This document shows positions 3,783 to 46,315 of a DNA stretch of 54,416 nt, piece after piece. The translations under genes were made by a program, and so were the position numbers. The stretch lies in the NCBI GenBank assembly GCA_034189065.1, contig JAXHVQ010000020.1, positions 1-54,416 of the forward strand. The letters run 5' to 3'. Positions within the stretch are counted from its first letter, which is position 1; every line of letters starts with the position of its first letter. This DNA is from Cyanobacteriota bacterium (lineage in GTDB: Bacteria > Cyanobacteriota > Cyanobacteriia > Cyanobacteriales > Spirulinaceae). A model generated the notes under the pieces. The model did no database searches and was not told the origin of the DNA. It was given only the letters and a program-made list of their open reading frames with translations.

Positions 3783-4403
3783 TCATCGTTCGGAAGATTG
3801 AATTAAGATTGTCCCTTTACCCGTAAAATTAAGCTGTTTCTCTTCTCCTGAAAACGTCGCACCTGCCAAACTGCCGACCGAAGAAAGAACTGTTTTAACG
3901 TATTCATAATCGTAATAATACGAAGGACTGGGTAAATCCGCCCAACCTAAAATCGCTTCGGGATCGACCCGCGCGGGTGCTTCGAGAAAGTGAACCGGAC
4001 CGTTGGAAGAAGCCAATAATTGACCCGTTCCTAAAAAAGTCAAATAATTGTAAAATGTCGATTGTTGGCAAACGAGCGTACTTTCAAATCCCAAAACGCG
4101 ATCGCGCTTTACCGTAAAATGGGCATTTTCGAGAGAATAAGAAGCAATATCTCGACCTCGGTCTCCCAAAATTAGTTTCCCCATGCCAGAAACCAGAACA
4201 AAGTCGTCGAGATACAGCGGTGCATTAAAGGATTCTTGAACTAAAACATCCAAAAAATTCCGACCGAGTGCCTCAAACTTCAAAGTCCCATAATAGGCAA
4301 TCATTTTACCCTTTTGGATAAAAAGTTGCTTCTTCACATCAATACAATAACTAAAGCGATTCAGATTGTCATTTTTCGGCAAAGTATCATAATTATAACT
4401 CAA
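3783..4403 (-). CDS. AIM24 family protein (DUF124), paralog C
   Basis: 206 aa; paralogous to the two upstream ORFs; 4-nt ATGA overlap with paralog B indicates operon. Confidence 0.65.
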   Translation of the reverse strand: MSYNYDTLPKNDNLNRFSYCIDVKKQLFIQKGKMIAYYGTLKFEALGRNFLDVLVQESFNAPLYLDDFVLVSGMGKLILGDRGRDIASYSLENAHFTVKRDRVLGFESTLVCQQSTFYNYLTFLGTGQLLASSNGPVHFLEAPARVDPEAILGWADLPSPSYYYDYEYVKTVLSSVGSLAGATFSGEEKQLNFTGKGTILIQSSER

Positions 4404-5083
4404 GATTGCGCCTCCCTTTCATAAGCTTGAACGTAAACGGTTCCTTGTCCGGCAAACTTCAGTTGATAGCTTTCTCCCGAAGCTTGACCTATAATATTTT
4501 TCCAGCCCACATCTGTAATCAACTGGGAATCTAAACTGCCTTTGTGACCGAGATAAGCATTGGGATCGACAAAAATAGGACTCGTCGGATTGACATCTAA
4601 ACCAATGGCATTTCCCCGAGACATTAAAGCAACATCGCCGTATCCTTCTAAGGTTGTTGTAAACAAACCTTGACCGCTAACATAGCCTCTGACTAATCCC
4701 TGAATGCCACCTTGGTTGCCCTGAAAAGTTGTTCCGGTTTGCAAGCTACTTTCAAAAGCGAGTAAACTACTACTTTCTACATATAATCTTTCTCCTTGTA
4801 AAGAAATCGGTGCGATATAAAGGTCATGGTAAGCATAATAAACTCGACCTTTTCCTCGTGCGGACATAAGTTGCAAACCTTCCTCAGTTACTTGGCGCAT
4901 TGCCAACTCTCGAATTCCACCTCCTGTGAGGAAGGAACGCGCGAAATGAACGGTTCCTTTGTAGGCAATCATCGACCCTTTTTGGGAATACACTTGGTCG
5001 CTTGCTAGATTGACTTCTAGCATTTTTTCGTTAACTAAATTAAAGTTTGGCATGGTGAATAATATAGCGCTTATTTTTAACAA
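4400..5083 (-). CDS. AIM24 family protein (DUF124), paralog B
   Basis: 227 aa; shared motifs SGQGLFTTTLEG, YQLKF.G.G with paralog A. Confidence 0.7.
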   Translation of the reverse strand: MLKISAILFTMPNFNLVNEKMLEVNLASDQVYSQKGSMIAYKGTVHFARSFLTGGGIRELAMRQVTEEGLQLMSARGKGRVYYAYHDLYIAPISLQGERLYVESSSLLAFESSLQTGTTFQGNQGGIQGLVRGYVSGQGLFTTTLEGYGDVALMSRGNAIGLDVNPTSPIFVDPNAYLGHKGSLDSQLITDVGWKNIIGQASGESYQLKFAGQGTVYVQAYEREAQS

Positions 5084-5128
5084 TCTCCCAAGTAGAGATG
5101 TCTTAAAACATTCTTACATCTGATTTTT

Positions 5129-5255
5129 CTCCTTCTAACTTATCCTAATAAGGGCGGGGAAACCCCGCCCCTACTTATTTCTCCCATTGAGGGCGGGGGA
5201 AACTCCTTCTAACTTATCCTAATAAGGGCGGGGAAACCCCGCCCCTACTTATTTT
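5129..5255. repeat. two direct copies (~52 bp, period 75) of a hairpin-containing repeat (GGCGGGGAAACCCCGCC) in the AIM24-A/AIM24-B intergenic region
   Basis: direct reading; perfect 7-bp stem 3-nt loop, no U-tract; partial third copy between them. Confidence 0.7.
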
Positions 5256-5869
5256 CGCTCTGAAGGCTGAATATAAACAAGACCATCGCCTGTAAACTTA
5301 AGTTGATAGGTTTCTCCTGATTCTTCGCCCCTTATGGTTTTCCAATTCACATCAAAGACAAATTCTTGGCGTAAATTGCCCTGATAGCCGATAAAAGCAT
5401 CGGGATCGACAAATAAAGGATAGGTGGGAGTTACTTCTAATGTCAATAAACTACCATCGGAAACAACAGCAATGTTCCCCCGTCCTTCCACAGTTGTTGT
5501 AAACAGTCCTTGACCGGAAGTTGCACCCCGCAGTCCGGCAAAGCTAACATTGGTTTTGAGGGGCTCGTCGAAGGCGAGAAGACTGCGACTTTCAACAAAT
5601 ATTTTTCCTTGATTTACCGAAAGAATTGAAATTTCTCTAGCTTGGGAGGCAAAATAAACAGTTCCGCTTCCCCGGGCGACCATCAGTTCAAATTGTTCTT
5701 TCGTTACTTTACGTTTGAGAACGCCAATTAATCCTTCGCCCCCCAAAAGGGCTTTCTCAAATTTAATCGTACCTTCTCGCGCGATCGCGGAACCGGCAAC
5801 GGCGAGAACCTTTTCGTTTTGCAGTTCCACCGCCAAGAGGCGATCGCACTTTAATTGGAAATTCGTCAT
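5249..5869 (-). CDS. AIM24 family protein (DUF124), paralog A
   Basis: 206 aa; motifs SGQGLFTTTVEG and YQLKFTGDG. Confidence 0.7.
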   Translation of the reverse strand: MTNFQLKCDRLLAVELQNEKVLAVAGSAIAREGTIKFEKALLGGEGLIGVLKRKVTKEQFELMVARGSGTVYFASQAREISILSVNQGKIFVESRSLLAFDEPLKTNVSFAGLRGATSGQGLFTTTVEGRGNIAVVSDGSLLTLEVTPTYPLFVDPDAFIGYQGNLRQEFVFDVNWKTIRGEESGETYQLKFTGDGLVYIQPSERK

Positions 5870-15822: not shown

Positions 15823-16440
15823 TTGCTAACGGTTGCCAACCGCTTCCAAACCCCCAAGAGTAACATGACTTATACCTCCCAAAAGCCAGTAGACCAAAGA
15901 TTTATCCATTCGGGAATAACCTGGTCGCAATTCAAATCGATCCAAGCAGGATTTCTCGATTCGCCTGGAATTCAACTATTTTACTATCGAGGAGAACTAG
16001 AAATCTTGTCTACCTCGCCAGACCACGAAATTGTTAAGGGCAATTTAGGATATCTCCTAGAAACATACCTGGTGGAACGAGAGATTGATTTTATGGGAAC
16101 GGGTTCGTGTTCGTTAGAAAAAGAAAATGAAGCATCGGTTATGGCAAATGAGTCTTATTGCTTTGGCGAGCAAAAGCCAATTCCAGATTTAGCAATTGAA
16201 GTGGTTTTGACGAGCGGCGGAACTCCTAAGTTAGAAAGATACAAAGCACTAGGAGTTAAAGAGGTTTGGTTTTGGGAAAATCGTAAAATTTCGGTGTATG
16301 CTTTGGAAAACGAACGCTATCAATCGATCGCGCGGAGTCAGTTTGTCCCTAACCTTAACCTTGAATGGCTCGCGCGATGTGCTACTCTGAGTTCGAGAAT
16401 ACAAGCCGTTAGAGAATTTCGCACTCGCAGCACGCTCTAG
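15823..16440 (+). CDS. Uma2 family (DUF820) putative restriction-endonuclease-like protein
   Basis: 205 aa; pattern of Uma2 family common in cyanobacteria (PD-(D/E)xK-like core). Confidence 0.7.
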   Translation: MLTVANRFQTPKSNMTYTSQKPVDQRFIHSGITWSQFKSIQAGFLDSPGIQLFYYRGELEILSTSPDHEIVKGNLGYLLETYLVEREIDFMGTGSCSLEKENEASVMANESYCFGEQKPIPDLAIEVVLTSGGTPKLERYKALGVKEVWFWENRKISVYALENERYQSIARSQFVPNLNLEWLARCATLSSRIQAVREFRTRSTL

Positions 16441-16554: not shown

Positions 16555-17214
16555 ATGATTACCGTGGCATTGCCCAAGGGCGCTCTTCTCAAAGATAGTA
16601 TTCACCTCTTCGGGCAAGTCGGTCTGGATTTTACGGCGTTTCTCGACGACCGCAACCGCCAACTCCAAATCTCCGACCCGACAAATACCGCCAAAGCGTT
16701 ACTCGTCCGCGCCCAGGATGTCCCAGTTTACGTCGAATACGGACAAGCGCAACTGGGAATTGTCGGCTACGACGTGCTTCTCGAAAAATCTCCCCAAGTC
16801 GCTCAACTTGCCGATCTCGATTTTGGTCGCTGTCGAATGTCCGTTGCCGTTCCAGCAGCCAGCCCCTATCAGCGATCGCAACATCTTCCCCCCCACGGCA
16901 GAGTCGCATCCAAATTCGTTCGTTGCGCCCGCGAACACTTTAACACCCTCGATCTTCCCGTTGAAATTATCCCCCTTTACGGCTCGGTGGAACTCGGACC
17001 GATTACGGGAATGTCCGACGCAATTGTCGATTTAGTCTCTACCGGACGCACTCTCCAGGAAAATGGCTTAGTGGAAATCGATATTTTGTTCGAGAGTACC
17101 GCTCGCCTCATTGCTCATCCCCTCAGCTATCGCTTGAATGCGGACGAATTGCACGACTGGGTGAGGCAGTTGCGCGAAATCGTACTCGAAAAAAGTCCGC
17201 ATATCGAAAATTAA
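16555..17214 (+). CDS. hisG: ATP phosphoribosyltransferase, short form
   Basis: N-terminus [12 protein letters not shown] and PRPP-binding region typical of HisG; ATG at 16555 preferred over TTG at 16510. Confidence 0.9.
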
Positions 17215-17261
17215 GGGCAAAACCTTCACAGTATTTTCACGAGAACTTGCTAGACTAAGCT

Positions 17262-17331
17262 CCAACGTGCAAATGATTAGGTGTGCAAATCTTCAATCCC
17301 CTAACTCGACAACGAGCTGGGGACTTTTTTT
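17262..17331 (+). ncRNA. candidate sRNA copy A (divergent) with extended -10 TGcTAGACT and terminator
   Basis: TGnTAGACT box ~17247-17255; hairpin ccctaactcgacaacgagctgggg followed by T8. Confidence 0.45.
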
Positions 17332-17438
17332 TGCGCTCGCCTTTCCTCCCTCCTGAGATTTTCCCCATCCCAAAACTGATTGGTATTTTGAGCGCAAAAC
17401 TTCACGGTATTTTCACGAATATCTGTTAGACTCAGTTA

Positions 17439-17504
17439 AAGCGTACAGATGATAGGTGTGCAGACATTCATCCCCCAACTCAACAACGAGCGGGGACTTT
17501 TTTT
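17439..17504 (+). ncRNA. candidate sRNA copy B
   Basis: TGtTAGACT box ~17424-17432; conserved core GCGTACAGATGATAGGTGTGCAGACA; hairpin + T7. Confidence 0.5.
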
Positions 17505-17611
17505 GGCGATCGCCTCTCCTCCCTCCTGAGATTTTCCCCATCCCAAAACTGATTGGTATTTTGAGCGCAAAACTTCACGGTATTTTCACGAATATCTGTT
17601 AGACTCAGTTA

Positions 17612-17677
17612 AAGCGTACAGATGATAGGTGTGCAGACATTCATCCCCCAACTCGACAACGAGCGGGGACTTTTTTT
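17612..17677 (+). ncRNA. candidate sRNA copy C
   Basis: identical to copy B apart from 1-2 nt; TGtTAGACT box ~17597-17605; T7 at ~17671. Confidence 0.5.
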
Positions 17678-17782
17678 GGCGATCGCCTTCCTCCCTCCTG
17701 AGATTTCCCCCATCCCAAAACTGATTGCATTTTCAGCCTAAAACTTCACGGTATTTTCACGAGTATTTGTTAGACTCAGTTA

Positions 17783-17848
17783 AAGCGTACAGATGATAGG
17801 TGTGCAGACATTCATCCCCCAACTCGACAACGAGTGGGGACTTTTTTT
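17783..17848 (+). ncRNA. candidate sRNA copy D
   Basis: TGtTAGACT box ~17768-17776; hairpin cccccaactcgacaacgagtgggg + T7. Confidence 0.5.
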
Positions 17849-17929
17849 GCGATCGCCTCTCCTCCCTCCTGAGATTTTCCCCATCCCAAAACTTCACAGT
17901 ATTTTCACGATAGTCTGTCATACTTAATA

Positions 17930-17995
17930 AAGCGTACAGATAATAGGCGTACAGACGTTTGTTCCTCAACTCTAGCTAGAGTTGGGGCTTTTTTT
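17930..17995 (+). ncRNA. candidate sRNA copy E (divergent)
   Basis: TGtCATACT box ~17915-17923; core GCGTACAGATAATAGGCGTACAGAC; hairpin caactctagctagagttg + T7. Confidence 0.4.
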
Positions 17996-18104
17996 ATAAC
18001 AACTGCACTTATCGTTGCCTAAGACCATCCAGTTTTTAAAGATTAATTTAAGCTTTGAATCTAGATTTTCACTTAAATTCCACAAAAATTTGTCATACTT
18101 AAGT

Positions 18105-18170
18105 ACAGCGTGCAGATGATAGGCGTACAGACACTAATCCCCCAACTTGAGTAAAAGTTGGGGGGTTTTT
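18105..18170 (+). ncRNA. candidate sRNA copy F (divergent)
   Basis: TGtCATACT box ~18091-18099; core GCGTGCAGATGATAGGCGTACAGAC; perfect 10-bp hairpin cccccaactt/aagttggggg + T6. Confidence 0.45.
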
Positions 18171-18216
18171 TCGATAAAAACACCTTTCTCAGGGCAGTTG
18201 GGCAAAAGCAACCGTC

Positions 18217-19104
18217 CTATTCGCACGGCGTAAGTTGAGCCAATTGCAGCACAATACTATCAATTGCACCCACCAAAGCATTGCCCGAAACATTCGACTG
18301 ATTCGCCAAAATGCTAAAGACCAAAGTCCCATAGGTCGGATTTTCGACATAGCCCGACAGCGCTCGAACGCCAGTCAGCGTACCAGTTTTAGCATGAACA
18401 ATTCCTTGAGCATTGGTAGCGCGCATTCGATTTCTGAGCGTCCCATTCACCCCAGCCACCGGCAGCGACGAATACCAAACATCCCAGGAACTCGTAGTAT
18501 TCATGCCCTTGAGAATATTAACCAACACGCTGGGCGTTGCCGAATTGCCGCGCGACAAACCCGAACCATCCACCTGACGATAGCCATTGGCACTCACGCC
18601 CAACTCGCTCAGCGTTTGCCGAACAGCCTGGGGTCCGCCAATATAGCGCAACAGAACATCAGCGTAGTTATTATTGCTCATTCGATTGGTGGTTGTCACC
18701 CACTGCCGCAAAGATTGAGAGCGAATTTGGGTTTGCGGACTCAGGCGCTGCAGCGCTGCGGCAGTGGTTAGCAATTTAACATTAGAGGCTGGAATCAAGG
18801 CTGAATTTGGATTGTAGCTATAGAGAACCTGGCCGTCGAGGGACTCTACCAAAATGCCCCACCGTCCGTTGGAAAATGGAGGTGTTTTCACGATAGAGTC
18901 AATGGCTGGTTCGAGAAACGCCGGACAAATTCCGTTTCTTCCCTGTTGTGCGGGGGGAACGGAAATGACGATGGGATCGAAGTTTGGGCTTAAATATTCG
19001 GCAAATTGAGCGTTGGCTGCTTTAGGAAAAAGGGGAGCCCCGGTTGCGATCGCAGTTGCCGCGAGCAAACCGAGAGAGTTAAGCCAAGATTTTTTTCTGT
19101 GCAT
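18217..19104 (-). CDS. D-alanyl-D-alanine carboxypeptidase/endopeptidase (peptidase S13, PBP4-like, short form)
   Basis: 295 aa; signal peptide; SxxK (SNVK) and KTG (HAKTGT) motifs. Confidence 0.7.
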   Translation of the reverse strand: MHRKKSWLNSLGLLAATAIATGAPLFPKAANAQFAEYLSPNFDPIVISVPPAQQGRNGICPAFLEPAIDSIVKTPPFSNGRWGILVESLDGQVLYSYNPNSALIPASNVKLLTTAAALQRLSPQTQIRSQSLRQWVTTTNRMSNNNYADVLLRYIGGPQAVRQTLSELGVSANGYRQVDGSGLSRGNSATPSVLVNILKGMNTTSSWDVWYSSLPVAGVNGTLRNRMRATNAQGIVHAKTGTLTGVRALSGYVENPTYGTLVFSILANQSNVSGNALVGAIDSIVLQLAQLTPCE

Positions 19105-32709: not shown

Positions 32710-35700
32710 ATGGAGAGGACGAAGCTTATGACTCAGGCAATGGAAACGAAACAAAAAACCTTTGCAACCATAGATGGCAACGAAGCGGTGGCGCGCGTCG
32801 CCCACGTCCTCAACGAAACGATCGCGATCTACCCCATCACCCCCTCTTCGCCAATGGGAGAATGGGCGGATGCTTGGACGGCGCAACATCAAAAAAACCT
32901 CTGGGGAACCGTCCCCTCGGTGGTGGAAATGCAAAGCGAGGGAGGCGCTGCGGGGGCAGTTCACGGCGCGTTACAGGCGGGTTCCCTGACGACGACGTTT
33001 ACCGCTTCCCAGGGACTCTTGCTCATGCTCCCCAATATGTATAAAATTGCCGGAGAGTTATCGCCGACGGTGTTTCATGTTGCCGCGCGATCGCTTGCCG
33101 CCCAAGCCCTCTCTATTTTTGGCGATCATAGCGATGTTATGGCGGCGCGCGCGACGGGGTTTGCCCTATTATGCGCCGCCTCGGTTCAAGAAGCTCACGA
33201 TTTTACCCTAATTTCTACAGCAGCGAGTTTAGAGTCGCGCATTCCCTTTCTTCATTTCTTCGATGGGTTTCGCACCTCCCACGAAGTTCAAAAAATCGAA
33301 ACCATTAGCGAAGAAACCATGCGATCGCTGATCGACGATGAGTTCATTTTAGCCCATCGCCAGCGCGCCTTAACCCCCGATCGCCCCGTCATTCGAGGAA
33401 CGGCGCAAAACCCCGATGTCTACTTCCAAGCGCGGGAAACCGTTAATCCCTTCTATAACGCTTGTCCCGATATTGTCCAAAAAATTATGGACGACTTCGC
33501 CCAACTCACCGGGCGACAATACCAACTTTTTGAATACCACGGCGATCCCGCAGCAGAACGAGTTATCATTCTCATGGGTTCCGGTTGCGAAGCGGCGCGG
33601 GAAACTGTCGAATCTCTCAATAGTCAAGGCGAAAAAGTTGGCATCATTCTCGTTCGTTTGTATCGTCCCTTTGATAGCAAGCGTTTGGTTGAAACTGTTC
33701 CCGATACCGTTAAAAAAATTGCCGTTCTCGATCGCACCAAAGAACCCGGATGTGCGGGGGAACCTCTCTATTTAGATGTGGTGACAGCCTTTCAAGTATA
33801 CGGTTCTCGATCGACTGCACCTGAAATTGTCGGCGGACGCTATGGATTATCTTCAAAAGAATTTAATCCAGCAATGGTTAAAGGAGTTTTTGATAACCTT
33901 AACCTCCCCCTTTCTCGAGGGGGGACTGAGGGGGGATCGCCGAAAAACCACTTCACCATCGGCATTAACGACGATCTCACCCACACCAGCTTAAACTACG
34001 ATCCCCGTTTCAGCACCGAACCCGAAAACGTCGTTCGCGCCATCTTCTACGGATTGGGCTCCGACGGAACGGTGGGGGCAAACAAAAATTCCATTAAAAT
34101 TATTGGCGGAGAAACTGACAACTACGCCCAAGGTTACTTCGTCTACGACTCCAAAAAGTCGGGTTCCGTTACCGTGTCTCACCTGCGTTTCGGCCCCCAA
34201 CCCATTCGTTCCACTTATTTAATCGATAAAGCTAGTTTCGTCGCCTGTCACCAATGGCAATTCATAGAAACTTTACCCATTCTCGATGCCATCGAACCGG
34301 GCGGTATTTTACTCCTCAACAGTCCCTACGCTACCGAAGAAGTTTGGAATCAAATCCCGTCGAAACTGCAAGGGCAAATTGTCGAAAAACAGCTTAAAGT
34401 TTACGCAATTAATGCCTATAAAGTGGCGCGAGATGCGGGAATGGGCGGCAGAATTAACACCGTCATGCAAGTTTGTTTCTTTGCCCTCTCGGGCGTTTTA
34501 CCCCGGGAAGAAGCGATCGCGCAAATCAAAAAATCCATCCGTAAAACCTACGGCAAAAAGGGCGAAGAAGTCGTCCGCCGAAATATCCAAGCCGTAGAAT
34601 CAACTATTGACAATTTGTACCCCGTTGAAGTCGGTTCCGTTGCCGCTGCTGGCGATGGCGAAAAACCGCCCGTCCCCGAAAATGCCCCCCAATTTGTGCG
34701 GGAAGTTTTGGGTAAAATGATTGCAGGCCAAGGGGACGAGCTCCCCGTCAGCGCGTTACCCGTGGATGGAACCTATCCCAGCGGTACCTCCAAGTGGGAA
34801 AAACGCAATGTCGCCCAAGAAATTCCCGTGTGGGATGCCGATGTCTGCGTTCAATGCGGCAAATGCGTGATGGTTTGTCCCCACGCGGTGATTCGCGCTA
34901 AGGCTTATGACGCGCAGGAGTTGGACAATGCACCGCCTACGTTTAAAAGTGCCGACGCGCGAGATCGCGATTGGCGCGGGTCTAAGTTTACCATCCAAGT
35001 GGCGGCGGAAGATTGCACCGGATGCGCCCTGTGCGTGGATGTTTGTCCTGCGAAGAATAAGTCGCAACCCCGTTTGAAGGCGATTAATATGGCACCGCAA
35101 CTCCCTTTGCGGGAACAAGAACGGGCAAACTGGGATTACTTTTTGAATCTTCCCAATCCCGATCGCCGTGGGTTAAATTTGAATAAGATTGCCCAGCAGC
35201 AACTACAGGAACCGCTGTTTGAGTTTTCCGGGGCCTGTGCGGGATGCGGCGAAACGCCCTATGTTAAACTAGCGTCTCAACTGTTTGGCGATCGCATGAT
35301 GGTTGCCAATGCGACGGGTTGTTCTTCGATTTACGGCGGCAACCTCCCGACGACTCCCTGGACTCATAATAGCGAAGGACGCGGCCCCGCTTGGTCTAAT
35401 TCTCTGTTTGAGGATAACGCGGAATTTGGCTTGGGTTTCCGTATTTCTATTGATAAACAGGCAGAATTTGCAGCAGAATTGCTAGAAACTTGCGCGACTG
35501 AAATCGGCGAAACCCTGGCAACCGGGATTCTCAACGCCGAACAGCGGGACGAAGCCGATATTTGGGAACAGCGGGAACGAGTGTCTCAGTTGAAACATCG
35601 CCTCGACGAACTCCTCAATGGCGATTCCCAACAAAAATCCCAATTGCGAAATTTAAAATCCCTCGCCGATTATCTCGTGAAAAAGAGCGTATGGATTATG

Positions 35701-36333
35701 GGGGGCGACGGTTGGGCTTACGATATCGGTTACGGCGGGTTGGATCACGTCCTCGCTTCGGGGCGCAATGTCAACGTTCTCGTCCTCGATACAGAAGTCT
35801 ACTCCAATACCGGCGGTCAAATGTCTAAGGCGACTCCTCGGGCGGCAGTTGCCAAGTTTGCAGCGGGAGGCAAGCCGTCGGCGAAGAAGGATTTGGGGTT
35901 GATTGCCATGACCTATGGTAATGTTTACGTGGCAAGCGTGGCGATGGGGGCGCGCGACGAACATACTTTGCGCGCATTTTTGGAAGCGGAGGCTTATGAC
36001 GGACCGTCGTTAATTCTGGCTTATTCTCATTGCATCGCCCACGGGATTAATATGGTGACGGCGATGCAGCAGCAAAAATCTCTTGTGGAGTCGGGACGGT
36101 GGTTGTTGTATCGTTACAATCCCGATCGCGCAAAACAAGGCGAAAATCCCTTAATGTTAGATTCGCGATCGCCTAAAGCTTCGGTGGAAGATTCGATGTA
36201 TGCAGAAAACCGGTTCAAGATGTTGGCGCGCAGTCAACCGGATGCGGCGAAGCAACTGTTACAAGAGGCACAGGGGGATGTGAAGACGCGCTGGCAGATG
36301 TATCAATATCTGGCGGCACAGCAAATGGGATAG
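32710..36333 (+). CDS. nifJ: pyruvate:ferredoxin (flavodoxin) oxidoreductase
   Basis: 1207 aa; two [4Fe-4S] ferredoxin motifs CVQCGKCVMVCP / CTGCALCVDVCP; TPP-binding GGDGW motif. Confidence 0.95.
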   Translation: MERTKLMTQAMETKQKTFATIDGNEAVARVAHVLNETIAIYPITPSSPMGEWADAWTAQHQKNLWGTVPSVVEMQSEGGAAGAVHGALQAGSLTTTFTASQGLLLMLPNMYKIAGELSPTVFHVAARSLAAQALSIFGDHSDVMAARATGFALLCAASVQEAHDFTLISTAASLESRIPFLHFFDGFRTSHEVQKIETISEETMRSLIDDEFILAHRQRALTPDRPVIRGTAQNPDVYFQARETVNPFYNACPDIVQKIMDDFAQLTGRQYQLFEYHGDPAAERVIILMGSGCEAARETVESLNSQGEKVGIILVRLYRPFDSKRLVETVPDTVKKIAVLDRTKEPGCAGEPLYLDVVTAFQVYGSRSTAPEIVGGRYGLSSKEFNPAMVKGVFDNLNLPLSRGGTEGGSPKNHFTIGINDDLTHTSLNYDPRFSTEPENVVRAIFYGLGSDGTVGANKNSIKIIGGETDNYAQGYFVYDSKKSGSVTVSHLRFGPQPIRSTYLIDKASFVACHQWQFIETLPILDAIEPGGILLLNSPYATEEVWNQIPSKLQGQIVEKQLKVYAINAYKVARDAGMGGRINTVMQVCFFALSGVLPREEAIAQIKKSIRKTYGKKGEEVVRRNIQAVESTIDNLYPVEVGSVAAAGDGEKPPVPENAPQFVREVLGKMIAGQGDELPVSALPVDGTYPSGTSKWEKRNVAQEIPVWDADVCVQCGKCVMVCPHAVIRAKAYDAQELDNAPPTFKSADARDRDWRGSKFTIQVAAEDCTGCALCVDVCPAKNKSQPRLKAINMAPQLPLREQERANWDYFLNLPNPDRRGLNLNKIAQQQLQEPLFEFSGACAGCGETPYVKLASQLFGDRMMVANATGCSSIYGGNLPTTPWTHNSEGRGPAWSNSLFEDNAEFGLGFRISIDKQAEFAAELLETCATEIGETLATGILNAEQRDEADIWEQRERVSQLKHRLDELLNGDSQQKSQLRNLKSLADYLVKKSVWIMGGDGWAYDIGYGGLDHVLASGRNVNVLVLDTEVYSNTGGQMSKATPRAAVAKFAAGGKPSAKKDLGLIAMTYGNVYVASVAMGARDEHTLRAFLEAEAYDGPSLILAYSHCIAHGINMVTAMQQQKSLVESGRWLLYRYNPDRAKQGENPLMLDSRSPKASVEDSMYAENRFKMLARSQPDAAKQLLQEAQGDVKTRWQMYQYLAAQQMG

Positions 36334-36412: not shown

Positions 36413-37009
36413 CTAGATATCGTCCCAATTGCAACCGTAATCCCGCACTGGATATTCAACCCAAGACTGGCGCAACCCTTCTCTGCCATAATGTTTTAAG
36501 TACCAATGAACGCTCGTTTGAGTCCAGTTATAGGGAGAACTTGTCCATTGGTGCTTGACGGGATTATAATGAATATAATTTAGGGTTGTGTGGTAATGTC
36601 GCTCCGAGCGAATTGCGCGATCGCTATAGTGGTACCAAATCTTACGGCCTCGCGTTTCATCTTCTTGATTCCATTGGTAGGAAGTGCGACCGTGAATTAA
36701 ACGAAGGCGTTGACCTAATTTATGAAACTCATCGATTTTTACTAATATGTGATAGTGGTTGGGTAGAATAACCCAAGCTCGAATTTCCCATCCTTGGTTC
36801 GTAAATTCTTCAAATAGTGAGTCTAGTATTTGTTGGCGGCGCGCGTCGGTATTCATATAAGGTTGATGTTCGTAGCAGGCTGCCGTCAAGAGGTAAAGTT
36901 CGCGATCGGCAATGGGATGGGGAGGCGAATGAGGGGGATATCCTCGTTCCAAACGCTGTGAAACTAACTTTGCTCGCTGTTTTGCGTTGAGTCGGCGATA
37001 ACTATACAT
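36413..37009 (-). CDS. REP-associated tyrosine transposase (RAYT, IS200/IS605 TnpA-like)
   Basis: 198 aa; HxH motif (HYHILV) and catalytic Tyr region; flanked by REP hairpins at 37015-37112. Confidence 0.8.
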   Translation of the reverse strand: MYSYRRLNAKQRAKLVSQRLERGYPPHSPPHPIADRELYLLTAACYEHQPYMNTDARRQQILDSLFEEFTNQGWEIRAWVILPNHYHILVKIDEFHKLGQRLRLIHGRTSYQWNQEDETRGRKIWYHYSDRAIRSERHYHTTLNYIHYNPVKHQWTSSPYNWTQTSVHWYLKHYGREGLRQSWVEYPVRDYGCNWDDI

Positions 37010-41836: not shown

Positions 41837-44392
41837 TTGATGACGCTCAATCGTCTTGTTCCAACGCTTAACCCCAACGTCACCGAGGAAATTCGCGTTT
41901 TTGGGACGGTACAAGGGGTTGGCTTTCGGCCAACAGTTTACCGCCTTGCTAACGAATGCGGGTTGTGCGGCGAGGTGAGTAATGATGGGTCGGGGGTGTT
42001 AATTTTAGTTACAGGCGATCGCGAAACCCTTGACAATTTTGTCCAGCGATTACAGCAAGAACAGCCGCCGCTGGCTAACATTGAATCCATTGTCCGTCGG
42101 CAGGACCGCGATCGCAACTTTTCCAATTTTCGCATCATTTCCAGCACGCCCAGTGCCATCCGCACTCAAATTGCCCCCGATGCAGCCACCTGTCCCGCCT
42201 GCAAAGGGGAAACCTTCGATGCTTCCAGCCGTTGGTATCGCTACCCCTTCACCAACTGCACCCACTGCGGCCCTCGTTTGAGTTTAATCCAAAAACTGCC
42301 CTACGATCGCGCCAACACCAGCATGGCTGCTTTTACCCTCTGTCCCGGCTGCCAGCAGGACTACGAAACCCCCACCAACCGACGCTTTCACGCCCAACCG
42401 ACAGCTTGTCCAACCTGCGGCCCTCGCGTTTGGTTAGAACGCGCCGACGGTAATCCTTGCAACCTTTCCCACTCTGACGCGATAAGTGCCGTTTTGCCGC
42501 TGCTGCAAGGGGGAAATATTGTTGCGATTAAAGGGTTGGGCGGCTTTCACCTTGCCTGCGACGCGACTAATGCAGAAGTCGTTGGGAAATTGCGCGATCG
42601 CAAACATCGTCCCGATAAACCTTTAGCATTAATGGCGCGCGATGTCAAGGTTATTTCTCAATGTTGTCTCTTAACAGAAGCAGAAAAAGAACTCCTGCAA
42701 AGTTCCGCCGCCCCCATTGTTTTGTTGAAAAAGAAAGAAGAATGCGATCGCGCGTTTATTCTTCCCGAAAATATCGCGCCGGGACTCAATATTGTGGGTT
42801 TCATGCTGCCGTATACTCCCCTCCATCATCTCCTAATGGAAAATTGCGATCGCCCCCTCGTTTTCACCAGCGGCAATCGTTCGGGGGAACCTCAGTGTAT
42901 CGGTAACGAAGAAGCACGACAAAAATTAAGTCAAATTGCCGACTATTTTCTCTTGCACAATCGCGAAATTATTAATCGAATCGATGATTCTGTCGCGCGC
43001 GTTATTCTATTGGGAAAGGTAGAGGGCAGAGGGCAGAAGGCAGAAGGGGAGGGAACTATAAATAAGAAGGAGGAAAGTTATGGAGTTGAAAGAAGGAAAA
43101 AAAGTGCGAGTGAATGCAAAATCAACTCTGCAACAAATATTTTTTTAACCCATAAAGCTCAATCCTCGAAAAGCGATCGAATCCAAATTTTGCGACGCGC
43201 TAGGGGATACGCCCCCGCCCCCATTTCTCTTCCACCGGGTTTTGAGAAAGCGTCGCCAATTTTGGCAATGGGAAGCGAGTTGAAAAATACCTTTTGTTTG
43301 CTACGACAAGGACAAGCTATTCTTTCGCAACACTTAGGCGATTTAGAAAATGCGTCGGCTTCCCGAGCTTATCAAGAATCCCTCAACTTATACTTACAGC
43401 TTTTCGAGCATCAACCGACAACTATCGCCATCGATCGACATCCCGAATACCAGTCGAGCAAACTTGGAAAAGAACTCGCTTGCGCTAACTCTCTCAACCT
43501 TGAAATTGTCCAACATCACCACGCCCATGTTGCTGCTTGTATGGCCGATAATGGCATATCTTTAGACGCACCGCCCGTTTTAGGAATTGCTTTAGATGGA
43601 TTGGGATACGGCGAAGATGGTATATTATGGGGAGGAGAATTTTTATTGGCGGATTATCGGAACTTTCAGCGTTTGGCAACGTTTAAACCCATTACAATGT
43701 TAGGAGGAGAACAGGCAATTTATCAGCCGTGGCGCAGTACCTACGCGCATTTGAGAGAAGCTGGCATAATGCCTTCCCTAGCCAAGAGAGTTGGGGGAAA
43801 GGGAAATTTGGAACTGTTTCGATTTCTACAGCAAAAACCTCTAAAAATTCTCGATCGCATGGCAGAAAAAAGAATTAACTCGCCCCTTGCATCGTCCTGC
43901 GGGCGGTTGTTTGACGCGGTTGCAGCGGCGATGGGAATTTGTCGGGAGTCGTGTCATTATGAGGGACAAGGGGCAATGCAACTGGAAACGCTAGCTTATG
44001 GCTATATCTTAAACAACTCTGAAGAAATTGAGAGTTATCCTTTTAGTGTGGGACAAATAGAAGGTGTCCAATTGCCTTATCTCGAACCGCAGCCGATGTG
44101 GGAGGTGTTACTGGACGATTTATACGAGGGAACAGACCTTTCGTTGATAGCGGCAAAATTTCACCTCGGTTTAGCGGATGCGATCGCGGCAATGGTTTCT
44201 TTCCTTCAAAATTGCGTATCATTTTGTCAAGTGGTTCTGACAGGAGGAGTTTTTCAAAACTATATCTTATTAAAGTTAGTCCGCGATCGCCTCGAATCTC
44301 AAAAACTCGAGGTGCTAACCCATCGTCAAGTTCCCCCCAACGACGGCGGTTTATCCCTCGGACAAGGCGCGATCGCTTGCGCGAGACAGTAA
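41837..44392 (+). CDS. hypF: [NiFe]-hydrogenase maturation carbamoyltransferase HypF
   Basis: acylphosphatase domain, two CxxC...CxxC zinc fingers, YrdC and Kae1-like domains; carries ~55-60 aa in-frame low-complexity insertion. Confidence 0.9.
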   Translation: MMTLNRLVPTLNPNVTEEIRVFGTVQGVGFRPTVYRLANECGLCGEVSNDGSGVLILVTGDRETLDNFVQRLQQEQPPLANIESIVRRQDRDRNFSNFRIISSTPSAIRTQIAPDAATCPACKGETFDASSRWYRYPFTNCTHCGPRLSLIQKLPYDRANTSMAAFTLCPGCQQDYETPTNRRFHAQPTACPTCGPRVWLERADGNPCNLSHSDAISAVLPLLQGGNIVAIKGLGGFHLACDATNAEVVGKLRDRKHRPDKPLALMARDVKVISQCCLLTEAEKELLQSSAAPIVLLKKKEECDRAFILPENIAPGLNIVGFMLPYTPLHHLLMENCDRPLVFTSGNRSGEPQCIGNEEARQKLSQIADYFLLHNREIINRIDDSVARVILLGKVEGRGQKAEGEGTINKKEESYGVERRKKSASECKINSATNIFLTHKAQSSKSDRIQILRRARGYAPAPISLPPGFEKASPILAMGSELKNTFCLLRQGQAILSQHLGDLENASASRAYQESLNLYLQLFEHQPTTIAIDRHPEYQSSKLGKELACANSLNLEIVQHHHAHVAACMADNGISLDAPPVLGIALDGLGYGEDGILWGGEFLLADYRNFQRLATFKPITMLGGEQAIYQPWRSTYAHLREAGIMPSLAKRVGGKGNLELFRFLQQKPLKILDRMAEKRINSPLASSCGRLFDAVAAAMGICRESCHYEGQGAMQLETLAYGYILNNSEEIESYPFSVGQIEGVQLPYLEPQPMWEVLLDDLYEGTDLSLIAAKFHLGLADAIAAMVSFLQNCVSFCQVVLTGGVFQNYILLKLVRDRLESQKLEVLTHRQVPPNDGGLSLGQGAIACARQ
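43015..43190 (+). other. AT/purine-rich in-frame insertion within hypF (GAGGGCAGA repeats; contains out-of-frame SD+ATG mini-ORF MELKEGKKVRVNAKSTLQQIFF)
   Basis: local composition shift; conserved HypF DDSV...RRARGYAP segment split by extra residues. Confidence 0.5.
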
Positions 44393-45154: not shown

Positions 45155-46315
45155 ATGAAGTATGTTGATGAATTCCGCGATCCCAAAAAAGCCAAGGCAT
45201 TAATCCAAAACATCCAACAACTGAGTCGAAAGCTCGAGCAAACTCCGGCAAATCCGCTAAAAGTCATGGAAGTTTGTGGAGGACATACCCACTCAATTTT
45301 CAAGTACGGAATTGAAGATAGTTTGCCCAATAATATCGAACTGATTCACGGACCGGGTTGTCCGGTGTGCGTGATGCCTCGGGGAAAGTTAGATGACGCG
45401 ATCGCGATCGCCCAAAATCCTAACGTTATCTTGGTCACTTTTGGCGATACCCTGCGCGTTCCCGGTTCCCAAAAAAGCTTGCTCCAAGCGAAGGCAGAAG
45501 GGGCAGATATTCGCATCGTTTATTCTCCCTTAGATTGTTTGCCCATCGCCCAACAAAATCCCGACAAAGAAGTGATATTTTTCGCCATTGGGTTTGAAAC
45601 AACCGCACCCAGTACCGCTTTAACCCTCCTCCAAGCGGTTGAAGAAAACATCACGAATTTCAGCCTTTTTTGCAATCACGTTCTCGTCGTTCCTGCCCTC
45701 GAAGCATTACTCAACAACCCCGACTTACAACTCGATGGATTTATTGGTCCGGGTCATGTAAGTACGATAATTGGAACTCAACCCTACGAAGAAATTTGTC
45801 AGACTTATCAGAAACCCATCGTCGTTTCGGGTTTTGAACCTTTAGATATTCTTCAATCAGTATGGATGGTGTTACAGCAATTTCTTGAAGATCGCTGCGA
45901 AGTCGAAAATCAGTACGATCGCTTGGTGCGGGAAAAAGGGAATCGCATCGCTATTGAAGCGATTCATCAAGTGTTTGAAACGCGCGAAAGTTTTGAATGG
46001 CGAGGGTTAGGTGAAATTCCGCGATCGGGATTGAAAGTTCGCTCTCGTTATGCTAAATTTGATGCTGAAACAAAGTTTGCGATTCTCCCCGCTAAGGTGG
46101 ACGACCATGAAGCTTGTCAATGCGGCGAAATTCTCAAAGGCGTGCTGAAACCTTGGGAGTGTAAGGTGTTTGGTACTGCTTGCACTCCAGAAAATCCCAT
46201 CGGTTCTTGTATGGTCTCGTCCGAGGGAGCTTGCGCTGCTTACTACAAATACGGTCGATTGTCAAGCTTAGCCAAGAACTCAAATGCTCAAAATGCTTGC
46301 GCGATCGCGTCGTAG
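45155..46315 (+). CDS. hypD: hydrogenase maturation factor HypD
   Basis: 386 aa; CGGHTH, GPGCPVC and FE..C motifs. Confidence 0.9.
   Translation: MKYVDEFRDPKKAKALIQNIQQLSRKLEQTPANPLKVMEVCGGHTHSIFKYGIEDSLPNNIELIHGPGCPVCVMPRGKLDDAIAIAQNPNVILVTFGDTLRVPGSQKSLLQAKAEGADIRIVYSPLDCLPIAQQNPDKEVIFFAIGFETTAPSTALTLLQAVEENITNFSLFCNHVLVVPALEALLNNPDLQLDGFIGPGHVSTIIGTQPYEEICQTYQKPIVVSGFEPLDILQSVWMVLQQFLEDRCEVENQYDRLVREKGNRIAIEAIHQVFETRESFEWRGLGEIPRSGLKVRSRYAKFDAETKFAILPAKVDDHEACQCGEILKGVLKPWECKVFGTACTPENPIGSCMVSSEGACAAYYKYGRLSSLAKNSNAQNACAIAS

What the first reader, a model, noticed from the sequence alone, without database searches (positions are those of the whole stretch)
17224..18175. Tandem array of six self-contained promoter-sRNA-terminator units between hisG and a PBP4-like gene
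Six head-to-tail units of about 175 bp occupy this interval. Each unit carries an extended -10-like box (TGnTAGACT; TGtCATACT in the two divergent copies). Each also has a conserved roughly 65-nt segment with the core GCGTrCAGATGATAGGyGTrCAGAC. Each ends in a GC-rich hairpin followed by a T6-T8 run, which is what an intrinsic terminator looks like. Four copies are near-identical and two have diverged, so the array looks like it arose by repeated duplication of a small transcription unit. Multicopy tandem sRNA loci are known in cyanobacteria; NsiR1 in Nostocales is one. This array does not sit next to hetF and has no TCCGGA motif at -35, so I could not assign it to any known family. A 26-codon mini-ORF (MIGVQTFIPQLDNERGLFLAIASPPS) runs through the terminator and is an alternative reading.
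Basis: partly seen in the sequence, partly recalled or inferred. Interest (0 to 1): 0.85.

Follow-up and report, generated by a model that had tools for sequence, protein, structure and literature searches.

The report
Tandem array of small RNA genes
Six head-to-tail copies of a roughly 65-nucleotide small RNA gene, each with its own promoter and terminator, lie between hisG and a penicillin-binding-protein gene; the same RNA family occurs in three related filamentous cyanobacteria and matches no catalogued RNA family.

Summary
Six units lie on the + strand between hisG and a Peptidase_S13 (PBP4-like) gene. Each has a conserved box (TTCAC-N6-TTCAC) exactly 10 nt upstream of a TGn-extended -10 hexamer, a conserved ~30-nt RNA 5' core, a GC-rich hairpin and a U-run.

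I found the same units in three other genomes: a JGI metagenome contig (3 units, same hisG-array-PBP synteny), NCBI MAG GCA_034190385.1 (5 units) and the cultured Oscillatoria sp. FACHB-1406 (2 units plus a relic).

Between genomes, the box, -10, RNA core, stem arms and U-run stay 74-92% identical. Spacers and hairpin loops fall to 25-40%. Third codon positions of the flanking genes fall to 46-69%. The terminator stems carry compensatory changes. The mini-ORF is not conserved: the start codon is lost in two units and ORF length ranges from 4 to more than 33 codons.

No Rfam family reaches its threshold. Sub-threshold NsiR1 hits (16-24 bits against a threshold of 39) appear to come from the terminator half only.

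Verdict: most likely a new, narrowly distributed family of multicopy "sibling" sRNA genes. It resembles NsiR1 in architecture but shows no detectable homology. No expression data were available, and the targets and the regulator are unknown.

The parts
16555..17214 (+). hisG (ATP phosphoribosyltransferase), upstream flank, same direction as the array; no terminator between its stop codon and unit 1
   Evidence: Pfam PF01634, 4.7e-53; 100% match to an NCBI MAG protein
17225..17256 (+). unit 1 promoter: TTCACAGTATTTTCAC box, 10-nt spacer ending TGC, -10 TAGACT
17264..17332 (+). unit 1 predicted sRNA, variant core (CAAAUGAUUAGGUGUGCAAAU), hairpin -12.5 kcal/mol, U8; positional orthologue of the hisG-proximal unit in L082
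   Evidence: CM 72 bits
17401..17432 (+). unit 2 promoter (box, TGT, TAGACT)
17438..17504 (+). unit 2 predicted sRNA
   Evidence: CM 92.9 bits; fold
17574..17605 (+). unit 3 promoter (box, TGT, TAGACT)
17611..17677 (+). unit 3 predicted sRNA
   Evidence: CM 95.9 bits
17745..17776 (+). unit 4 promoter (box, TGT, TAGACT)
17782..17848 (+). unit 4 predicted sRNA
   Evidence: CM 96.2 bits
17893..17924 (+). unit 5 promoter (box, TGT, CATACT)
17929..17995 (+). unit 5 predicted sRNA; perfect 10-bp terminator stem, U7; the AUG of the mini-ORF is AUA here
   Evidence: CM 83.2 bits; terminator scan
18068..18099 (+). unit 6 promoter (degenerate box TTCACTTAAATTCCAC, TGT, CATACT)
   Evidence: 1 mismatch
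18105..18172 (+). unit 6 predicted sRNA; 13-bp stem, U6; ends 45 nt from the stop codon of the convergent PBP gene; positional orthologue of the PBP-proximal unit in L084
   Evidence: CM 82.7 bits; terminator scan
18217..19104 (-). Peptidase_S13 / PBP4-like D-Ala-D-Ala carboxypeptidase, convergent downstream flank
   Evidence: Pfam PF02113, 1.4e-52

Best explanation
The interval holds six paralogous genes for a small non-coding RNA of about 63-68 nt ("sibling" sRNAs). Each gene is an autonomous transcription unit.

Inferred promoter: RNA polymerase starts about 7 nt downstream of a TGn-extended -10 hexamer (TAGACT or CATACT). There is no -35 consensus. In its place, at about -38 to -23, sits a direct repeat with an 11-nt period (TTCAC-N6-TTCAC). 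This is the layout of a site for an OmpR/PhoB-type response regulator, which would switch all copies on or off together.

Inferred termination: transcription stops at a GC-rich hairpin followed by a U-run.

Inferred function: the sequence-conserved 5' part (…GCGURCAGAUGAUAGGYGURCAGACAUUCA…) is the functional surface. It most likely pairs with mRNAs in trans. Having several copies raises the dose, and the diverged end copies (u1, u5, u6) may have shifted target preferences, as reported for NsiR1.1 versus NsiR1.4.

The array grows and shrinks by duplication and loss of internal units, while the end units persist as orthologues.

Shown here: the anatomy, its conservation in four genomes, the selective pattern of that conservation, stem covariation, and the absence of coding constraint. 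Inferred: transcription, the start site, the regulator class and the base-pairing mode of action.
For: - **Six units in the window, none elsewhere.**
- **Sixteen units in four genomes.** They score 53-96 bits with models R1 and R2. The best score in 1.33 Mb of other cyanobacterial loci is 17.6 bits.
- **Fixed promoter geometry.** The box lies exactly 10 nt upstream of the -10 hexamer in 16 of 16 units, and TG precedes the hexamer in all 16 (TGT in 15, TGC in unit 1). Hairpins are -9.7 to -19.0 kcal/mol and U-runs are 5-9 nt.
- **Conservation follows function.** Identity between genomes is 0.90 for the box, 0.74 for the -10, 0.79 for the core, 0.77 and 0.81 for the stem arms and 0.92 for the U-run. 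It is 0.27 for the loop and 0.36-0.40 for the spacers. Third codon positions of hisG and the PBP gene are 0.46-0.69 identical between the same genomes.
- **Terminator helix.** 89.8% of cells are paired against at most 54% in slid controls. Six cells show changes on both sides, and the covariation score exceeds 500 of 500 shuffles.
- **Independent units.** The two FACHB-1406 units are separated by 300 nt of unrelated DNA, yet each keeps its box, -10 and terminator.
- **Not coding.** The mini-ORF is not conserved.
- **Known parallels.** NsiR1 has 12 tandem copies, identical in the centre and diverged at the periphery, each with its own promoter (PMC9045159). In Synechocystis the psrR1 sRNA promoter carries an OmpR-type (RpaB) site between -35 and -10 (PMC6525291).
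Against: - No transcript data of any kind were available.
- The consensus promoter scan did not call these promoters, because there is no -35 match. It called only 2 of the 6 terminators.
- No mRNA target was found. Duplex energies of the core against the whole window equal those of shuffled cores. There is no consistent pairing with the start regions of neighbouring genes.
- Covariation rests on only two stem positions, on an alignment fitted to the model, and on related sequences.
- The 5' hairpin alternatives are not decided.
- The regulator is unidentified, and no response-regulator gene was seen in the parts of the window I scanned.
Confidence: 0.7

Rival explanations
1. The units are diverged members of the NsiR1 family (RF02399), retained in non-heterocystous filamentous cyanobacteria with a different promoter.
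For: NsiR1 is the only Rfam family hit repeatedly by the units. Four of the six window units score 15.8-19.2 bits, and two units in relatives score 24.2 and 22.0 bits. No other site in those 19 kb was hit. The architecture is the same: about 60 nt, tandem, one promoter and terminator per unit, identical centre and diverged ends (PMC9045159). An NsiR1-like annotation exists in non-heterocystous Limnospira (PMC8400943).
Against: All scores are far below the gathering score of 39. The 5' (non-terminator) part shows no similarity to the NsiR1 consensus beyond chance: about 50% of shuffles score as well, so the hits seem to come from the AUCCCCCA…GGGG-U-run terminator. There is no TCCGGA (DIF1) in the array, and the flanking genes are hisG and a PBP gene, not hetF.
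Confidence: 0.08
2. The units encode a small protein (the MIGVQTF… mini-ORF), and the hairpin is simply its terminator.
For: An AUG lies in the conserved core, and 11 codons (MIGVQTFxPQL) are similar in many units.
Against: The AUG is AUA in u5 and AAG in the hisG-proximal unit of L082. A 1-nt insertion shifts the frame in u1. A stop follows 4 codons in the second FACHB-1406 unit. ORF length ranges from 4 to more than 33 codons with unrelated C-termini. No Shine-Dalgarno sequence precedes the AUG. Variation follows base-pairing in the stem, not codon positions.
Confidence: 0.03
3. The units are not independent genes. They are processed from a long read-through transcript of hisG (3'-UTR-derived RNAs), or they act only as a stack of terminators insulating the convergent hisG and PBP genes.
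For: No terminator lies between the hisG stop codon (17214) and unit 1. The array is co-directional with hisG in three genomes, and with hisIE in the fourth. It lies between convergent genes in all four.
Against: A stack of terminators does not explain the conserved box at a fixed 10 nt from a -10 hexamer in 16 of 16 units, nor the conserved 30-nt 5' core. In L084 the array persists without hisG next to it.
Confidence: 0.1
4. The RNA acts as a protein decoy rather than by base-pairing. The duplicated GURCAGA motifs bind and titrate an RNA-binding protein, and the multiple copies supply the stoichiometry.
For: Two copies of GURCAGA sit 8 nt apart in every unit. The only frequent variation in them is the A/G transition, apart from the CAAA variants in units 1, A1, A2, B2, B3 and C2. 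No mRNA target was found.
Against: The two motifs can instead form a 4-bp helix (GURC with GURC) whose A/G changes keep pairing (96% of cells paired). No candidate protein is known. The target search covered only about 54 kb plus a few loci.
Confidence: 0.1
5. The array is a mobile or selfish repeat (MITE-like element), or a chance or assembly-generated repeat.
For: It is repetitive. Short-read assemblies break at it: the Logan contig L001 ends inside the array.
Against: There are no terminal inverted repeats. No copies occur elsewhere in the window or in 1.33 Mb of other cyanobacterial loci. The position is syntenic in three assemblies made independently.
Confidence: 0.02

Closest known systems
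NsiR1 (Rfam RF02399), Nostocales
   Same: [quoted passage not shown] Each repeat has its own promoter and Rho-independent terminator. Central copies are identical and peripheral copies have diverged (12 copies in Nostoc 7120; PMC9045159). The terminator begins with AUCCCCCA in both.
   Different: There is no detectable similarity in the 5' functional part, and the Rfam score is 16-24 bits against a threshold of 39. The promoter has a TTCAC-N6-TTCAC box instead of the DIF1 TCCGGA motif. The neighbours are hisG and a PBP gene, not hetF. The one named host is a non-heterocystous Oscillatoria; the other three carriers are unclassified cyanobacterial MAGs or metagenome contigs.
Trichodesmium erythraeum tandem-repeat sRNA array (Pfreundt et al. 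2014, as reviewed in PMC6596454)
   Same: Abundant sRNAs transcribed from a tandem repeat array in a non-heterocystous filamentous cyanobacterium, with near-identical central repeats.
Tandem sibling sRNAs in other bacteria (for example PrrF1/PrrF2, OmrA/OmrB, LhrC1-4); from my own knowledge, not checked here
   Same: Adjacent paralogous sRNA genes, each with its own promoter and terminator, co-regulated by one transcription factor and acting by base-pairing through a conserved seed.
   Different: The sequences and phyla are unrelated, there are usually 2-5 copies, and many depend on Hfq.
psrR1 promoter with an HLR1 (RpaB) site, Synechocystis
   Same: An sRNA promoter in which a pair of direct repeats for an OmpR-type regulator spans the region between -35 and -10 (PMC6525291).
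   Different: HLR1 is (G/T)TTACA(T/A)(T/A) twice with a 10-nt period. Here the repeat is TTCAC with an 11-nt period, so it is not an HLR1 site.

Membership tests
NsiR1 (RF02399) | Score at or above the Rfam gathering threshold (39 bits) | tested here: not met
   15.8-19.2 bits in the window; 24.2 and 22.0 bits in relatives; nothing in the array at gathering threshold
NsiR1 (RF02399) | Sequence similarity in the 5' single-stranded functional region | tested here: not met
   Local alignment of the 5' parts against the NsiR1 consensus 5' part is matched or exceeded by 45-52% of 5000 shuffles
NsiR1 (RF02399) | DIF1 motif (TCCGGA) at -35 of each repeat | tested here: not met
   TCCGGA occurs only at 19940 and 41065 in the window. 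The -35 region holds the TTCAC box
NsiR1 (RF02399) | Array located upstream of hetF, with the proximal copy antisense to its 5' UTR | tested here: not met
   The flanks are hisG and a Peptidase_S13 gene. Relatives are flanked by hisG, PBP, NmrA-like or DUF4090 genes
NsiR1 (RF02399) | Tandem direct repeats, one promoter and one terminator per repeat, central copies identical and peripheral copies diverged | tested here: met
NsiR1 (RF02399) | HetR/NtcA-dependent, heterocyst-specific expression | not testable with these tools
   No expression data. The only cultured carrier is an Oscillatoria
Multicopy sibling sRNA gene array (general kind) | Several paralogous units, each with promoter-like and intrinsic-terminator elements, conserved as units across genomes | tested here: met
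   16 units in 4 genomes; conservation confined to box, -10, core, stem arms and U-run
Multicopy sibling sRNA gene array (general kind) | Discrete small transcripts with primary 5' ends | not testable with these tools
   No RNA-seq was accessible
Intrinsic (Rho-independent) terminator | GC-rich hairpin directly followed by a U-run, with the stem kept by compensatory changes | tested here: met
   Hairpins -9.7 to -19.0 kcal/mol and 5-9 U in 16 of 16 units; 89.8% of cells paired and 6 double-sided changes
HLR1 / RpaB-controlled promoter | Two (G/T)TTACA(T/A)(T/A) octamers separated by 2 nt | tested here: not met
   The repeat is TTCAC with an 11-nt period, against the definition in PMC6525291
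Small-protein gene | Conserved start codon, frame, length and ribosome-binding site | tested here: not met
MITE / dispersed repeat | Terminal inverted repeats and copies dispersed in the genome | tested here: not met
   No copy outside the array in 54 kb or in 1.33 Mb of other cyanobacterial loci. The complete genomes could not be scanned

The most novel reading that the evidence does not exclude
The array is the output arm of an undescribed two-component regulon in a small clade of Oscillatoria-like cyanobacteria. One OmpR-type regulator would fire 2-6 sRNA genes at once through the TTCAC-N6-TTCAC box. The RNAs would control a process linked to the histidine-biosynthesis genes that flank the array in all four genomes: hisG in three, hisIE in the fourth, where the core GCAGACAU pairs across the hisIE start codon AUGUCUGC. 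This would be a functional counterpart of NsiR1 that arose independently outside heterocyst formers.
Probability: 0.15. Interest if true: 0.7.

Novelty: new member of a known kind. Interest (0 to 1): 0.55.

Why it matters
Tandem arrays of short sRNA genes are rare. In cyanobacteria the only well-studied case is NsiR1, which is tied to heterocyst development. A second, unrelated family with the same architecture in non-heterocystous filamentous cyanobacteria would show that this gene-dosage design arose more than once. It also offers a compact system for studying how sibling sRNAs diverge: a conserved promoter box, a conserved seed and variable copy number. One carrier, Oscillatoria sp. FACHB-1406, is in culture, so transcripts, regulator and targets can be tested directly. 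The conserved box is a ready handle for finding the transcription factor and its regulon.

Tried and rejected
- **Exact core pattern in public collections.** GTRCAGATRATAGGYGTRCAGA gave 0 hits in genome contigs and 0 in metagenome contigs. These collections evidently lack the three carrier assemblies found later, so their silence is weak evidence.
- **Promoter-plus-core gapped pattern in metagenome contigs.** It returned 6 loci, all chance matches by model R2.
- **Viral contigs.** CARATGATAGGYGTRCAG gave 4 chance hits scoring 12.5-16.7 bits. An NsiR1 consensus 18-mer gave 0 hits, so no real NsiR1 loci were obtained for a reciprocal test.
- **hisG-syntenic loci.** Eighty loci from GTDB species representatives held no unit.
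- **More distant PBP and hisG relatives.** Those with 61-86% identity (L085-L092, L097, L098) held no unit next to the gene. L106-L108 were judged from gene layout only, because a GGDEF gene follows hisG directly; I did not run the model on them.
- **Protein search with spurious ORF translations of the array.** Nothing was found, not even the 46-aa product called in L082, so very short products are probably not indexed.
- **Target search by duplex energy.** The window gave a best energy of -28.0 kcal/mol against -27.1 to -30.2 for shuffled cores. Neighbour start regions gave no consistent signal. The seed-complement ATGTCTGYAC occurs only within the array itself.
- **Two alternative 5' hairpins.** Neither is decided by covariation.
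- **Literature searches.** Searches for the core sequence and for a TTCAC direct-repeat regulator in cyanobacteria found nothing relevant.
- **Other candidate regulator sites.** NtcA (GTA-N8-TAC) and CRP-type palindromes were considered by eye. The spacing and symmetry do not fit.
Full report
**1. The observation**

The interval 17217-18172 holds six head-to-tail units on the + strand.
- Tandem Repeats Finder reports a 173-nt period over 17217-17893, with 3.9 copies and 92% matches.
- The repeat finder lists six copies of the promoter segment and five of the 68-nt RNA segment, spaced 176, 173, 171, 147/148 and 175/176 nt apart.
- A covariance model built from the six RNA segments finds exactly these six places in the 54-kb window (72-96 bits) and nothing else.
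- Units 2-4 are 94-99% identical. Units 5 and 6 have diverged. Unit 1 has a variant core with a 1-nt insertion.
- Pfam confirms the flanks: hisG (16555-17214, +) and a Peptidase_S13 / PBP4-like gene (18217-19104, -).

**2. Anatomy of a unit**

Reading 5' to 3', each unit has five parts.
- A direct repeat TTCAC-N6-TTCAC.
- A spacer of exactly 10 nt that ends in TG plus one more base (TGT; TGC in unit 1).
- A -10-like hexamer: TAGACT in u1-4 and CATACT in u5-6.
- About 7 nt later, a ~30-nt conserved segment, (A)AGCGURCAGAUGAUAGGYGURCAGACAUUCA.
- A GC-rich hairpin (-10.7 to -19.0 kcal/mol in the window) and 6-8 U.

The composite promoter motif occurs six times in the window, always in the array, against 0.37 expected. 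The generic sigma-70 scan does not call these promoters because there is no -35 match. Its terminator scan calls only u5 and u6, because u1-u4 have an internal mismatch in the stem.

**3. Relatives**

The window is a contig of an NCBI MAG labelled only "Cyanobacteriota bacterium". Following the flanking proteins into public assemblies gave three further carriers.

| Carrier | Flanking protein identity to window | Units | Neighbours |
|---|---|---|---|
| JGI metagenome 3300055047 (L082; same sequence in Logan SRR35626363) | PBP 89%, hisG 92% | 3 | hisG-array-PBP, same order as the window |
| NCBI MAG GCA_034190385.1 (L084) | PBP 87% | 5 | PBP on one side; an NmrA-like gene and hisIE on the other |
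| Oscillatoria sp. FACHB-1406, cultured (GCA_014698145.1, L099) | hisG 83% | 2, plus a relic hairpin | hisG upstream, DUF4090 gene downstream |

- All 16 units score 53-96 bits with models R1 and R2. The best score in 1.33 Mb of other cyanobacterial loci is 17.6 bits.
- Exact-pattern scans of the large genome, metagenome and viral collections found no further members. Those collections evidently lack the three carriers above, so the true distribution is unknown. It looks narrow.
- More distant relatives of the PBP or hisG genes have no unit next to those genes. L106-L108 were judged from gene layout only.

**4. Evidence of function from the pattern of conservation**

In the 16-unit alignment, identity between units of different genomes is as follows.

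| Segment | Identity between genomes |
|---|---|
| TTCAC box | 0.90 |
| -10 hexamer | 0.74 |
| RNA 5' core | 0.79 |
| Terminator stem arms | 0.77 and 0.81 |
| U-run | 0.92 |
| Hairpin loop | 0.27 |
| Spacers upstream and downstream | 0.36-0.40 |

- For scale, third codon positions of the flanking genes are only 0.46-0.69 identical between the same genomes.
- The box lies exactly 10 nt from the -10 hexamer in 16 of 16 units.
- In FACHB-1406 the two units are 300 nt apart with unrelated DNA between them, yet each keeps its box, -10, core and terminator. That is hard to explain unless each unit works on its own.
- The terminator helix is paired in 89.8% of cells, against at most 54% when partners are slid. 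Two stem-top positions show six double-sided changes, and the covariation score exceeds all 500 shuffles. The caveats are that the sequences are related and that the alignment was fitted to the model.
- The 5' core is conserved in sequence beyond what any hairpin needs. Two alternative small 5' hairpins are both compatible with the data and neither is decided.

**5. Evolution of the array**

- The hisG-proximal units of the window and of L082 share the variant core, including its 1-nt insertion.
- The PBP-proximal units of the window and of L084 share AGGCGUACAGAC and the loop GUAAAAG.
- So the end units are old orthologues, while the near-identical internal units are recent duplicates. This explains copy numbers of 6, 3, 5 and 2. 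NsiR1 shows the same pattern: seven identical central copies and diverged peripheral ones (PMC9045159).

**6. Rival readings**

- **Coding.** The mini-ORF starts at the AUG inside the core. That codon is AUA in u5 and AAG in one L082 unit. The frame is shifted in u1, a stop follows four codons in one FACHB-1406 unit, lengths run from 4 to more than 33 codons, and no Shine-Dalgarno sequence precedes the AUG. Rejected.
- **NsiR1 membership.** NsiR1 is the only Rfam family that the units hit repeatedly, but at 16-24 bits against a threshold of 39. The 5' parts are no more similar to the NsiR1 consensus than shuffled sequence is. The resemblance therefore appears to lie in the AUCCCCCA…GGGG-U-run terminator. 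TCCGGA is absent from the array and hetF is not a neighbour. This is the same kind of thing as NsiR1 but not a demonstrable member.
- **Mobile element or chance repeat.** There are no dispersed copies, and the position is syntenic in independent assemblies. Rejected.
- **Terminator stack or hisG 3'-UTR processing.** This does not explain the fixed-geometry promoter elements or the conserved core. Read-through from hisG into unit 1 remains possible, because no terminator separates them.
- **Protein decoy via the duplicated GURCAGA motifs.** Not excluded.

**7. Mechanism**

My best reading, with about 0.7 confidence that these are autonomous non-coding RNA genes:
- Each unit is transcribed from an extended -10 promoter.
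- The -35 region is occupied by a site for a direct-repeat-binding regulator. The 11-nt period and the position 10 nt from the -10 are typical of OmpR/PhoB-type response regulators; this rests on general knowledge.
- The closest cyanobacterial parallel is the RpaB/HLR1 site between -35 and -10 of psrR1 (PMC6525291). This box is not HLR1, because it has TTCAC rather than TTACA and a period of 11 rather than 10. Whether the factor activates or represses cannot be told.
- The ~65-nt RNA ends at an intrinsic terminator and probably acts through its conserved 5' 30 nt on mRNAs in trans. Copy number would set the dose, and the diverged end copies may have shifted specificity.

Targets are unknown.
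- Duplex scans of the window give energies equal to those of shuffled cores.
- Neighbouring genes show no consistent complementarity.
- One lead: in L084 the core GCAGACAU pairs across the hisIE start codon (AUGUCUGC; -25.3 kcal/mol; 0 of 30 shuffles reach it).
- The array lies beside a histidine-biosynthesis gene in all four genomes (hisG in three, hisIE in one). This may be coincidence or inherited synteny.

**8. Novelty and verdict**

- Tandem arrays of sRNA genes are known in cyanobacteria: NsiR1, and a Trichodesmium array of much larger units (PMC6596454).
- This is a new family of that known kind. It matches no Rfam family at threshold, and literature searches for its core sequence found nothing relevant.
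- It sits in a small clade that includes a culturable Oscillatoria.
- It is a sound, testable finding of moderate interest. The missing piece is expression data.

Noticed in passing
window 16555-17214; L082 11563-12207; L099 10001-10633; L084 2600-3241: The array lies beside a histidine-biosynthesis gene in all four genomes. hisG is directly upstream and co-directional in three. In the fourth, hisG is replaced by an NmrA-like gene followed by hisIE, also co-directional. In L084 the RNA core GCAGACAU is complementary to the hisIE start region AUGUCUGC (-25.3 kcal/mol, 0 of 30 shuffles).
   Followed up: partly
window, whole (sites at 19940 and 41065): TCCGGA occurs only twice in 54 kb, against about 18 expected from dinucleotide-preserving shuffles. 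This is strong avoidance of the palindrome and may reflect a restriction-modification system.
   Followed up: no
window 19570-19644 and 19644-19717: ARAGORN calls a tRNA-Ile with the unusual anticodon AAT directly abutting a tRNA-Met (CAT). Rfam at gathering threshold reports only the second one, whose 1:72 acceptor pair is mismatched, as in initiator tRNAs. The first call may be a false positive or a pseudogene.
   Followed up: no
window 17505-17514, 17678-17687, 17849-17857: A HIP1-type palindrome (G)GCGATCGC(C) sits directly after the U-run of units 2-4. A similar GCGATCGCG follows one L082 unit, and GCGCTCGCGC follows the L084 units.
   Followed up: no
L099 10743-10787: In Oscillatoria sp. 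FACHB-1406 a hairpin plus T-run (…TTCAACTCCTTTAAAGAGTT…TTTTTTT) lies between hisG and the first full unit. It resembles the unit terminator (R2 9.7 bits, model positions 25-67) but lacks the box and core. It looks like a decayed hisG-proximal unit that now serves as the hisG terminator.
   Followed up: partly
window 3783-5869 (-): Three consecutive AIM24-family paralogues (206, 227 and 206 aa) in tandem.
   Followed up: no
window 15823-16440 (+) and 25715-26527 (+); L085 8695-9264: Two Uma2-family putative endonuclease genes in the window, one just upstream of hisG. Another lies near the PBP gene in relative L085.
   Followed up: no
window 32710-36333, 41837-44392, 45155-46315; 36413-37009: The window holds a pyruvate:ferredoxin oxidoreductase (nifJ-like) gene and the hydrogenase maturation genes hypF and hypD. 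An IS200-like Y1 transposase gene lies between them.
   Followed up: no
L082 9150-9851: In the closest relative, an IS605 OrfB / TnpB-like (Cas12f-like) gene sits immediately upstream of the PBP gene. It is absent at that position in the window.
   Followed up: no
L097 72-749: In a Logan contig whose hisG is 86% identical to the window's, an OmpR-type response regulator gene (Response_reg + Trans_reg_C) lies two genes from hisG, but there is no sRNA unit on that 2.6-kb contig. This is probably coincidence, but it is the regulator class predicted for the TTCAC box.
   Followed up: no
window 18217-19104 (-) and homologues P0002-P0120: The PBP4-like protein is a short form of about 290 aa. The Pfam S13 profile has 444 positions, and the best matched stretch covers profile positions 269-436. 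The short form is widespread at this length across cyanobacteria, so it is not a truncated pseudogene.
   Followed up: no
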